Of a stretch of 57,545 nucleotides of DNA, positions 57,474 through 57,545 are shown in pieces; the first letter of the stretch is position 1, and every line of letters starts with the position of its first letter. Under the pieces are notes generated by a model. That model worked only from the letters and a program-made list of their open reading frames with translations. It was not told the DNA's origin and searched no databases. The DNA is taken from the NCBI RefSeq assembly GCF_003334765.1, contig NZ_QOWT01000027.1; one strand, written 5' to 3'. This DNA comes from Escherichia coli. GTDB lineage: Bacteria > Pseudomonadota > Gammaproteobacteria > Enterobacterales > Enterobacteriaceae. The position numbers were made by a program, and so were the translations under genes.

Positions 57474-57500
57474 AAAAAAGCGCCTTTAGGGCGCTTTTTT
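57474..57500 (-). terminator. rho-independent terminator (minus strand), upstream of nadA
   Basis: Minus-strand aaaaaagcgccctaaaggcgcttttttgc: GC stem plus U-tract; likely ends the upstream tRNA transcription unit. Confidence 0.7.
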
Positions 57501-57504
57501 ACAT

Positions 57505-57522
57505 TGGTGGGTCGTGCAGGAT
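57505..57522 (-). other. 18-nt fragment identical to the 3' end of tRNA-Lys(UUU)
   Basis: Minus strand reads ATCCTGCACGACCCACCA (T-stem 3' half, acceptor 3' strand, discriminator, CCA), but the preceding bases (gcgagcgaagcgagtc) do not form a T-loop, so it is not a complete tRNA. Confidence 0.6.
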
Positions 57523-57545
57523 GACTCGCTTCGCTCGCCCTTCGG

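What the first reader, a model, noticed from the sequence alone, without database searches (positions are those of the whole stretch)
57474..57545. Orphan 18-nt tRNA-Lys 3' end next to a terminator at the window edge
The minus strand carries ATCCTGCACGACCCACCA, an exact match to the 3' terminus of tRNA-Lys(UUU), but the upstream bases cannot form the T-loop. It is therefore either a partial duplication of the tRNA 3' end (as seen downstream of some tRNA operons) or an attachment-site core left by an integrase that targets tRNA 3' ends. The window ends 23 bp beyond it, so the context is not visible.
Basis: seen in the sequence. Interest (0 to 1): 0.5.

Follow-up and report, generated by a model that had tools for sequence, protein, structure and literature searches.

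The report
Tail of a known RtT element
The 18 bases are the built-in tRNA-like tail of a known, already annotated 'RtT' spacer element that follows the last lysine tRNA gene of E. coli and is followed by a second copy of the operon's terminator; it is an ordinary feature, not a phage or island attachment site.

Summary
ATCCTGCACGACCCACCA lies at 57505-57522 (-). It equals nt 59-76 of tRNA-Lys(UUU), is not inside a tRNA, and abuts a strong hairpin terminator.

The window is K-12-like E. coli and ends 85 nt short of the element's 5' end. In the extended sequence the 18-mer is the 3' end of a 126-nt RtT-family element (Rfam RF00391, 46.7 bits, threshold 45; PGAP label 'RtT sRNA'). The layout is lysQ - terminator - RtT - 18-mer - identical terminator - nadA.

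The unit is bounded by a 54-bp direct repeat (18-mer plus terminator). It is present at this locus in 2510 of 5426 complete E. coli genomes and precisely absent from the strains without it that were examined. It recurs after lysV and in other Enterobacteriaceae genera, where its hairpins covary. Four shorter RtT-like units follow lysT, lysW, lysY and lysZ.

No integrase or foreign DNA is nearby.

In a scan of 120 loci, RtT elements carried the 3' 18 nt of whichever tRNA preceded them (Lys, Tyr, Arg, Pro, Ser, Gln). Already known; low interest.

The parts
57505..57522 (-). 18-nt copy of the 3' end of tRNA-Lys(UUU) (T-loop nt 59-60, T-stem 3' strand, acceptor 3' strand, discriminator, CCA). It is the 3' terminus of the RtT element.
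   Evidence: Exact, unique match. Identical to the 3' end of all five tRNA-Lys genes in L001. Aligned to Rfam RtT model positions 113-130.
57505..57545 (-). The 3' 41 nt of a 126-nt RtT-family element. The remaining 85 nt lie beyond the window edge. The full element is L001:2416-2541, which is MG1655 781,683-781,808.
   Evidence: In-window fragment: RF00391 model positions 84-130, 23 bits, flagged as cut at the 5' end. Full element: 46.7 bits against a gathering score of 45. PGAP annotates it as ncRNA 'RtT sRNA'.
57472..57502 (-). Rho-independent terminator hairpin (13-bp stem GUAAAAAAGCGCC/GGCGCUUUUUUGC, loop CUAAA). It is the second of two identical copies and the last barrier before nadA.
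   Evidence: -19.1 kcal/mol, z = -5.3, 0 of 200 shuffles fold as well. Identical copy directly after lysQ (L001:2386-2416) and after lysV. Agrawal et al. 2014 report that the terminators downstream of lysV and lysQ are identical in sequence.
57469..57522 (-). Downstream copy of a 54-bp direct repeat (18-mer + terminator + GCTAT). The upstream copy begins inside lysQ. The two copies bound the 156-bp unit that is present or absent between strains.
   Evidence: Exact 54-mer found twice in L001 (2368 and 2524) and twice in MG1655. Strains O157:H7, O68:H12 and MMC-J-0085 have a single copy with lysQ abutting the terminator.

Best explanation

RtT elements are tRNA-derived spacer or trailer modules. 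A conserved set of small hairpins (...ACGRCCCGAAGGGYGAR-hairpin-GAGTMATCC...) is fused to a copy of the 3' 18-19 nt of the tRNA gene that lies upstream.

Shown:
- The layout is lysQ, terminator, 102-nt body, 18-mer, terminator.
- The unit is bounded by a 54-bp direct repeat.
- It is present at the nadA locus in 46% of complete E. coli genomes. In each of the three strains without it whose sequence was examined, it is missing exactly at the repeat boundaries.
- The same layout occurs after lysV and in other Enterobacteriaceae genera, with compensatory changes in the hairpins.

Inferred:
- The unit arose by duplication or unequal recombination of 'tRNA 3' end + terminator' around an RtT body.
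- The 18-mer stays identical to the tRNA by concerted evolution (recombination or conversion among the repeats).
- The unit is lost by recombination or slippage between the 54-bp repeats.
- It is transcribed only when RNA polymerase reads through the first terminator.
- Because the 18-mer and what follows it are identical to the end of lysQ, the same enzymes that finish lysQ would give the RtT RNA a tRNA-like CCA end. These are RNase P, which cuts U^G 2-3 nt after the CCA, followed by RNase T trimming.
- The second terminator then acts as a fail-safe that shields NadR-regulated nadA from the strong tRNA promoter.

The cellular role of the RtT RNA itself remains unestablished.
For: - Identity and context. 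The window tail is 100% identical to E. coli chromosomes where PGAP labels this spot 'RtT sRNA'. RF00391 hits L001:2416-2541 at 46.7 bits, above the gathering score of 45, over model positions 1-130. The window fragment aligns to model positions 84-130.
- Four further RtT-like units (54-60 bits) follow lysT, lysW, lysY and lysZ. All end in GAGTCATCCTGCACGACCCACCA.
- The tyrT locus has four RtT copies of 133-137 bits that end in the tRNA-Tyr 3' end.
- The 54-bp repeat and the precise presence/absence are shown. A junction-spanning query is covered at 80% or more in 2510 of 5426 genomes.
- The same module lies after lysV.
- Orthologous terminal units in Enterobacter, Citrobacter, Klebsiella, Pseudocitrobacter, Mixta and Erwinia have 98.7% of cells paired. 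Four pairs show compensatory change, and 0 of 500 shuffles reach the observed covariation score.
- Across 120 loci, 81 of 98 first units share 18/18 nt with the tRNA directly upstream. This includes species-specific tRNA variants.
- Processing: PMC4176162 shows one transcript of more than 1100 nt from the lysT promoter. It maps RNase P removal of the identical lysV terminator and presumes the same for lysT.
Against: - The Rfam score of this copy is only just above threshold (46.7 against 45).
- Its outer helix, the one that pairs the tRNA-like strand in the tyrT copies, is broken.
- It lies behind a strong terminator, so its expression is unproven. The published Northern result ('>1100 nt') cannot tell terminator 1 from terminator 2.
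- 54% of E. coli genomes lack it at this locus, so it is dispensable.
- No function has been shown for any lys-type RtT.
- The origin, the concerted-evolution step and the fail-safe role are inferences.
Confidence: 0.9

Rival explanations
1. The 18-mer is an attachment-site core (attL/attR remnant) left by an integrase that targets the T-loop-to-3'-end segment of tRNA-Lys.
For: The duplicated segment starts in the T loop and runs to CCA. That is the shape of the identity block of many tRNA-targeting integrases (own knowledge: Williams 2002, NAR 30:866). An intact tRNA followed by an orphan 3' end is the layout such integrations leave.
Against: - No integrase or phage gene is annotated in the 57.5-kb window or on the other side, which holds the tRNA operon, cpoB and pal.
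- The 'insert' between the repeats is 102 bp of RtT body.
- The repeat is 54 bp and includes the terminator.
- The same core sits behind at least eight other tRNA isoacceptors, each time with that tRNA's own end. A fixed attP cannot produce that.
- The junction with nadA is intact in 5425 of 5426 genomes.
Confidence: 0.02
2. The unit is a functionless relic: a decaying by-product of tandem duplication in a recombination-prone tRNA operon. It makes no RNA of its own, and the second terminator is merely redundant.
For: - It is absent from 54% of E. coli genomes at this locus.
- Other units in the operon also come and go between strains.
- It sits behind a -19 kcal/mol terminator.
- Its Rfam score is marginal and its outer helix is broken.
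Against: - The same terminator/RtT/terminator layout is kept across several Enterobacteriaceae genera and at two loci in K-12.
- Its internal hairpins show compensatory substitutions.
- RtT RNAs near tRNA-Lys and tRNA-Asn genes are detected on Northern blots in Actinobacillus pleuropneumoniae (PMC4986893).
Confidence: 0.3
3. RtT units are, or descend from, an actively spreading module that enters tRNA genes at the T loop (between nt 58 and 59). This would make the 18-mer a target-derived duplication rather than a product of local recombination.
For: - Full-length units carry the resident tRNA's T-stem 5' strand plus TTCGA on the left of the conserved insert. They carry AT, the T-stem 3' strand, the acceptor 3' strand and CCA on the right.
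- This holds for Lys, Tyr, Arg, Pro, Ser and Gln tRNAs in several gammaproteobacterial orders.
- Presence/absence boundaries fall inside the repeat.
Against: - No enzyme is associated with the units.
- Loss by repeat recombination explains the polymorphism without any insertion event.
- At this locus the repeat is 54 bp, not 18 bp.
- No recent insertion (an empty site in a close relative plus an identical donor copy) was seen.
- Selection for a tRNA-specific helix, with compensatory 5' strands, could also explain the matching.
Confidence: 0.1
4. The 18-mer belongs to an intact tRNA-Lys whose T arm the reader misread.
For: None beyond the 18-nt identity.
Against: ARAGORN finds no tRNA in the window. 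The Rfam tRNA model finds none at L001:2416-2541. The upstream sequence is the RtT core, not D, anticodon or T arms.
Confidence: 0.01

Closest known systems
RtT RNA / rttR repeats of the tyrT-tyrV operon (Rfam RF00391; Bosl & Kersten 1991, NAR 19:5863, cited)
   Same: - The same covariance model hits both.
- Both share the conserved core (CGTTGC..GCAACG, CCCGAAGGG, GAG-hairpin-GAGTMATCC).
- Both end in an exact copy of the upstream tRNA's last 18-19 nt.
- Both lie in the tRNA operon in the tRNA's orientation, and both occur as tandem, copy-number-variable units.
   Different: - This copy ends in the tRNA-Lys tail, not the tRNA-Tyr tail.
- It scores 46.7 bits against 133-137.
- It lacks the 10-bp closing helix (GGGGAAGGAT/ATCCTTCCCC in tyrT).
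- It has no tpr-like ORF annotated.
- It lies behind a terminator and is itself followed by a copy of that terminator.
Internal spacers of the lysT operon (after lysT, lysW, lysY, lysZ)
   Same: They have the same 3' 45 nt, including the 18-mer, and the same operon and orientation. They too are present or absent between strains, with boundaries inside the 18-mer.
   Different: The internal units are about 100 nt and lack the pseudo-T-arm part of the body. They keep a 9/10 closing helix (CGTGAAGGAT/ATCCTGCACG). They are certainly transcribed, as part of the polycistronic precursor. The terminal unit is full length (model positions 1-130), sits between two terminators and has a 54-bp repeat.
tRNA-gene attachment sites of tyrosine integrases (T-loop class)
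   Same: An intact tRNA is followed at a distance by an orphan copy of its T-loop-to-CCA segment.
   Different: There is no integrase and no cargo. The 'insert' is a conserved 100-nt RNA-like module. The same module sits at many different tRNAs, each with its own tail.
Functional tRNA trailers and spacers such as 3'ETS-leuZ (own knowledge: Lalaouna et al. 2015, Mol Cell 58:393)
   Same: It is a non-tRNA segment of a tRNA operon transcript that could be released by the tRNA-processing enzymes.
   Different: 3'ETS-leuZ acts by base pairing with sRNAs and has no tRNA 3'-end copy. No target or partner is known for lys-type RtT. Not tested here.

Membership tests
RtT RNA (Rfam RF00391) | Covariance-model score at or above the curated gathering score (45 bits) | tested here: met
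   The full element in the identical extended sequence L001:2416-2541 scores 46.7 bits, E = 2e-8, over model positions 1-130. The 41 nt inside the window alone give 23 bits and are flagged as truncated. The margin is small.
RtT RNA (Rfam RF00391) | Lies downstream of a tRNA gene, in the same orientation, within a tRNA operon | tested here: met
   It lies 30 nt after lysQ (the terminator in between) on the lysT operon strand.
RtT RNA (Rfam RF00391) | The 3' terminal 18-19 nt are identical to the 3' end of the upstream tRNA | tested here: met
   18/18 with tRNA-Lys. The same rule holds in 81 of 98 units next to Lys, Tyr, Arg, Pro, Ser and Gln tRNAs.
RtT RNA (Rfam RF00391) | Conserved core hairpins 5' of the tRNA-like tail | tested here: met
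   ACGGCCCGAAGGGCGAG-CGAAGC-GAGTC is present. The hairpins are supported by compensatory changes among orthologues.
RtT RNA (Rfam RF00391) | Outer helix pairing an upstream segment with the tRNA-like 3' strand | tested here: not met
   The cmscan alignment marks 4 of the outer pairs as non-canonical in this copy. The helix is intact in the tyrT copies and 9/10 in the internal lys units. Some orthologues (Mixta, Enterobacter ENT03) keep GCAGGAT.
RtT RNA (Rfam RF00391) | Released as a stable RNA during tRNA operon processing | not testable with these tools
   This needs a Northern blot or RNA-seq. Published Northern blots of the lysT operon did not probe this unit specifically.
Integrase attachment site in a tRNA gene | Integrase (or other recombinase) gene within the bounded element or nearby | tested here: not met
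   The annotated genes ybiX to nadA, and cpoB/pal on the other side, are all core genes with no recombinase. The window is 99.97% collinear with that record.
Integrase attachment site in a tRNA gene | Two core copies bounding foreign DNA that is absent from empty-site strains | tested here: not met
   Occupied and empty alleles differ by 156 bp, made of RtT body plus a terminator copy.
tRNA gene | Cloverleaf detectable by ARAGORN or the Rfam tRNA model | tested here: not met
   No tRNA in the window. No tRNA hit at L001:2416-2541.
Rho-independent terminator | G+C-rich hairpin followed by or including a U tract, at the end of a transcription unit | tested here: met
   13-bp hairpin, -19.1 kcal/mol, U6. 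The sequence is identical to the lysV and lysQ terminators studied by Agrawal et al. 2014. Termination at this second copy itself was not measured.

The most novel reading that the evidence does not exclude
RtT elements may be more than tyrT-type leftovers. In this reading they are a widespread gammaproteobacterial module in which a copy of a tRNA's 3' quarter is split in the T loop (between nt 58 and 59) by a conserved 65-90-nt structured insert.

The module sits behind at least ten isoacceptors of six amino-acid identities (Lys, Tyr, Arg-ACG, Arg-CCG, Pro-TGG, Pro-CGG, three Ser, Gln). For most of them it carries that tRNA's own 3' 18 nt exactly; the few Arg-CCG and Ser-GCT units scanned did not. 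It often also carries a compensating 5' strand and a pseudo T-stem.

That would imply either an unrecognised way of spreading between tRNA genes, or selection for a tRNA-specific acceptor/T-arm mimic. Such a mimic could be a decoy or handle for enzymes that read tRNA 3' ends. The copy at the window edge would be one degenerate member.
Probability: 0.2. Interest if true: 0.6.

Novelty: already known. Interest (0 to 1): 0.15.

Why it matters
For this locus, little. It shows that an orphan tRNA 3' end next to a terminator can be a routine RtT trailer rather than a scar of integration, which is useful for anyone calling att sites from tRNA fragments.

It also documents three things:
- The lysT operon is a recombination-prone array whose RtT units, including this one, vary between E. 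coli strains.
- nadA is shielded from the tRNA promoter by one or two identical terminators, depending on the strain.
- The RtT family tracks the identity of its neighbouring tRNA across many isoacceptors and orders. I could not find this stated in the literature I could search, and it would deserve its own study.

Tried and rejected
- tRNA reading: ARAGORN on the window and the Rfam tRNA model on the extension found nothing at the site. Rejected.
- Terminator scan: the simple promoter/terminator scan did not report the hairpin, because its A/U-extended stem consumes the T run. Folding settled it.
The reverse complement was used instead.
- Counting the unit in E. coli. (body only) is confounded by the twin copy after lysV. 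(180-nt query) is inflated because BLAST pieces from internal spacers were joined. (225-nt junction query) gives the usable figure, 2510 of 5426.
- Literature. Bosl & Kersten 1991 is not held. The current version of the CoCoNuT preprint no longer mentions RtT. 'RtT-like' searches return Rett-syndrome papers. 'lysQ nadA' returned nothing relevant. The mobilome preprint only repeats the rttR annotation.
- Hammerhead ribozyme: the GGAUGAGAAC segment of full-length RtT units was considered, by eye only, as a possible relation. It was rejected because the CUGA box is absent. Not tested further.
- Retroelement primer-binding site: the plus-strand complement was considered as a PBS, since it is also 18 nt. 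This was rejected because the tail always matches the neighbouring tRNA and no reverse transcriptase is near.

Full report
**Observation.** On the minus strand the window reads 5'-CCGAAGGGCGAGCGAAGCGAGTC ATCCTGCACGACCCACCA ATGTAAAAAAGCGCCCTAAAGGCGCTTTTTTGCTATTCAGG-3' from 57545 downwards.
- The 18-mer at 57505-57522 is unique in the window even with three mismatches allowed (0.03 matches expected by chance).
- It equals the last 18 nt of tRNA-Lys(UUU), from T-loop nt 59 to CCA.
- The preceding bases are not a T arm.
- ARAGORN finds no tRNA anywhere in the window.
- The following hairpin (57472-57502) has 13 bp, folds at -19.1 kcal/mol and has z = -5.3. The simple scan missed it because the stem absorbs the T run.

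**Where we are.** The last 446 bases are 100% identical to E. coli chromosomes.
- The whole window is collinear at 99.97% with a K-12-like record. It runs from ybiX through dinG, moa, uvrB, bio, the empty lambda attB, mod, gal, gpmA, aroG, zitB and pnuC to nadA.
- nadA starts at 57228 on the minus strand.
- The window stops at MG1655 position 781,768, inside the lysQ-nadA intergenic region.
- Beyond the edge lie lysQ, lysZ, lysY, valZ, lysW, valT, lysT, cpoB and pal.

**What the 18-mer belongs to.**
- PGAP annotates an ncRNA 'RtT sRNA' at L001:2416-2541, and its last 18 nt are the 18-mer.
- Rfam RF00391 (RtT) matches that stretch over the whole model at 46.7 bits, against a gathering score of 45.
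- The 41 nt that fall inside the window align to model positions 84-130 and are flagged as cut at the 5' end.
- MG1655's own curated annotation has no feature there.
- The local layout is: lysQ...CCA, terminator ATGTAAAAAAGCGCCCTAAAGGCGCTTTTTTGCTAT, a 102-nt RtT body, the 18-mer, the same terminator again, the nadA promoter region.
- The segment '18-mer + terminator + GCTAT' (54 bp) therefore occurs twice as an exact direct repeat.
- Four shorter RtT-like units (54-60 bits; in those hits the model's 5' half is aligned to the tRNA itself) follow lysT, lysW, lysY and lysZ. All end in GAGTCATCCTGCACGACCCACCA. The extension therefore holds ten copies of the 18-mer: five in tRNA genes and five in RtT units.
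- In K-12 the same tRNA-Lys/terminator/RtT/18-mer/terminator module also follows lysV in the valU operon.

**Polymorphism.**
- O157:H7, O68:H12 and MMC-J-0085 lack the terminal unit. In them lysQ's CCA abuts the terminator, and the downstream junction (GCTATTCAGG) is that of the second repeat copy.
- Units behind lysT, lysW or lysZ are likewise precisely absent in some strains, and the number of tRNA-Lys genes varies.
- A 225-nt query spanning body, 18-mer, terminator and 66 nt of unique nadA-side sequence is covered at 80% or more in 2510 of 5426 complete genomes. So about 46% carry the unit at this locus.
- The body is found at some locus in 3239 genomes.
- Two earlier counts were confounded: one by the lysV twin, the other by joined BLAST pieces.

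- Enterobacter, Citrobacter, Klebsiella, Pseudocitrobacter, Mixta, Erwinia and others have the same layout: tRNA-Lys, terminator, RtT, 18-mer and a following sequence that again starts like the terminator (RTGTA...). Some have two or three tandem units.
- The layout therefore predates E. coli. The E. coli genomes that lack it have most likely lost it.
- An alignment of 21 such units folds into a consensus in which 98.7% of cells are paired. Four pairs show compensatory changes, and none of 500 shuffles reaches the observed covariation score.
- That argues for some RNA-level constraint on the body. The 18-mer itself is mostly unpaired in this consensus.

**The RtT family more widely.**
- Of 98 units that lie directly behind a tRNA, 81 share all 18 terminal nucleotides with that tRNA. 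The scan pattern forced only the first four (ATCC).
- The partners are Lys, Tyr, Arg(ACG), Arg(CCG), Pro(TGG), Pro(CGG), several Ser and Gln tRNAs. The hosts are Enterobacterales, Orbales, Oceanospirillales-like genera, Thioalkalivibrio and others.
- Species-specific tRNA variants are copied too. Examples are Citrobacter ACGCCCC, Hafnia CCCGC and a CCCCGCC tRNA-Tyr.
- The Rfam RtT model scores these at 51-101 bits, so they are members of the known family.
- In many units an upstream strand is complementary to the tail and changes with the tRNA: Tyr GGGGAAGGAT, Gln GGACTGGGAT, Lys CGTGAAGGAT, Arg CAGGGAGGAT.
- Full-length units also carry the resident tRNA's T-stem 5' strand plus TTCGA just left of the conserved insert. 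Mismatches are 0.5-1.3 against the own type and about 2-2.3 against other types.
- The family thus looks like a tRNA 3' quarter interrupted between nt 58 and 59.
- In the E. coli terminal lys copy the closing helix is degenerate.

**Known biology.**
- RtT was described as an RNA released from the tyrT transcript and linked to the stringent response (Bosl & Kersten 1991, cited).
- RtT-family RNAs next to tRNA-Lys and tRNA-Asn genes are seen on Northern blots in Actinobacillus pleuropneumoniae (PMC4986893).
- Agrawal, Mohanty and Kushner showed that the lysT promoter makes one transcript of more than 1100 nt (PMC4176162).
- They also showed that the lysV and lysQ terminators are identical. RNase P removes the lysV terminator by cutting between U and G, 2-3 nt after the CCA, and they presume the same for lysT. 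RNase T then finishes the lys tRNAs.
- Their size estimate cannot distinguish termination at the first or the second terminator copy.
- The mapped U^G cut falls exactly at the 5' base of the 13-bp hairpin. My inference is that this hairpin has about the length of an acceptor/T-arm minihelix.

**Interpretation.** The 18-mer is the tRNA-like tail of a known RtT element.
There is no recombinase, no cargo and a 156-bp allele difference. The junction with nadA is intact in 5425 of 5426 genomes.
- How the unit works is partly inference. It can be transcribed only by read-through of terminator 1.
- If it is transcribed, the identical 18-mer-plus-terminator context would be handled like the end of lysQ and would leave a CCA-ended RNA.
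- The second terminator then backs up the first in front of nadA.
- Loss by recombination between the 54-bp repeats explains the strain differences.

**Verdict.** The feature is real, ordinary and already catalogued: novelty 'already known', interest 0.15. The one thread worth following elsewhere is the family-wide matching of RtT tails, and of compensating strands, to whichever tRNA lies upstream.

Noticed in passing
L006-L125 (loci); e.g. L008:6653-6786, L027:3798-3923, L038:1040-1173, L054:7494-7638, L064:8947-9071: RtT-family units lie behind tRNA-Gln, Pro, Ser, Arg, Tyr and Lys genes in several gammaproteobacterial orders. In 81 of 98 cases they end in the exact 3' 18 nt of that tRNA. They often also carry a compensating 5' strand and that tRNA's T-stem 5' strand plus TTCGA left of the insert. 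The unit looks like a tRNA 3' quarter split between nt 58 and 59.
   Followed up: partly
L130:554-821 (MG1655 about 2,521,253-2,521,520): The valU-valX-valY-lysV operon ends with the same module as the lysT operon: tRNA-Lys, terminator, near-identical RtT body, 18-mer, terminator. K-12 therefore has two copies of the whole terminal unit.
   Followed up: partly
window 57352-57389: There is a 28-bp insertion/deletion polymorphism in the nadA upstream region, bounded by the direct repeat TTACGCCTAA (57352-57361 and 57380-57389). Strains M18 and MMC-J-0085 lack it. The segment contains GTGCAGGATG (57363-57372), the complement of CATCCTGCAC, a 10-nt match to the start of the 18-mer region. This is probably chance, because the O157 version of the segment does not have it.
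   Followed up: partly
window 57472-57504 (and L001:2386-2416): The published RNase P cut that removes the identical lysV terminator (U^G, 2-3 nt after CCA) falls exactly at the 5' base of the 13-bp hairpin stem. The hairpin is about the length of a tRNA acceptor/T-arm minihelix, which may be why RNase P accepts it. This is inference only.
   Followed up: no
L001:1287-2385 compared with L002, L003, L128, L129: The lysT operon differs between E. coli strains in the number of tRNA-Lys genes (4 or 5 seen) and in which spacers carry an RtT-like unit. Breakpoints always fall inside the 18-mer repeats.
   Followed up: partly
window 31971-31985 (-): The 15-bp core of the phage lambda attachment site (GCTTTTTTATACTAA) lies between ybhB and ybhC. 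It is unoccupied: no prophage is present.
   Followed up: no
window about 22257-22401 (-): The collinear reference record annotates a molybdenum-cofactor riboswitch upstream of moaA. It is a known feature.
   Followed up: no
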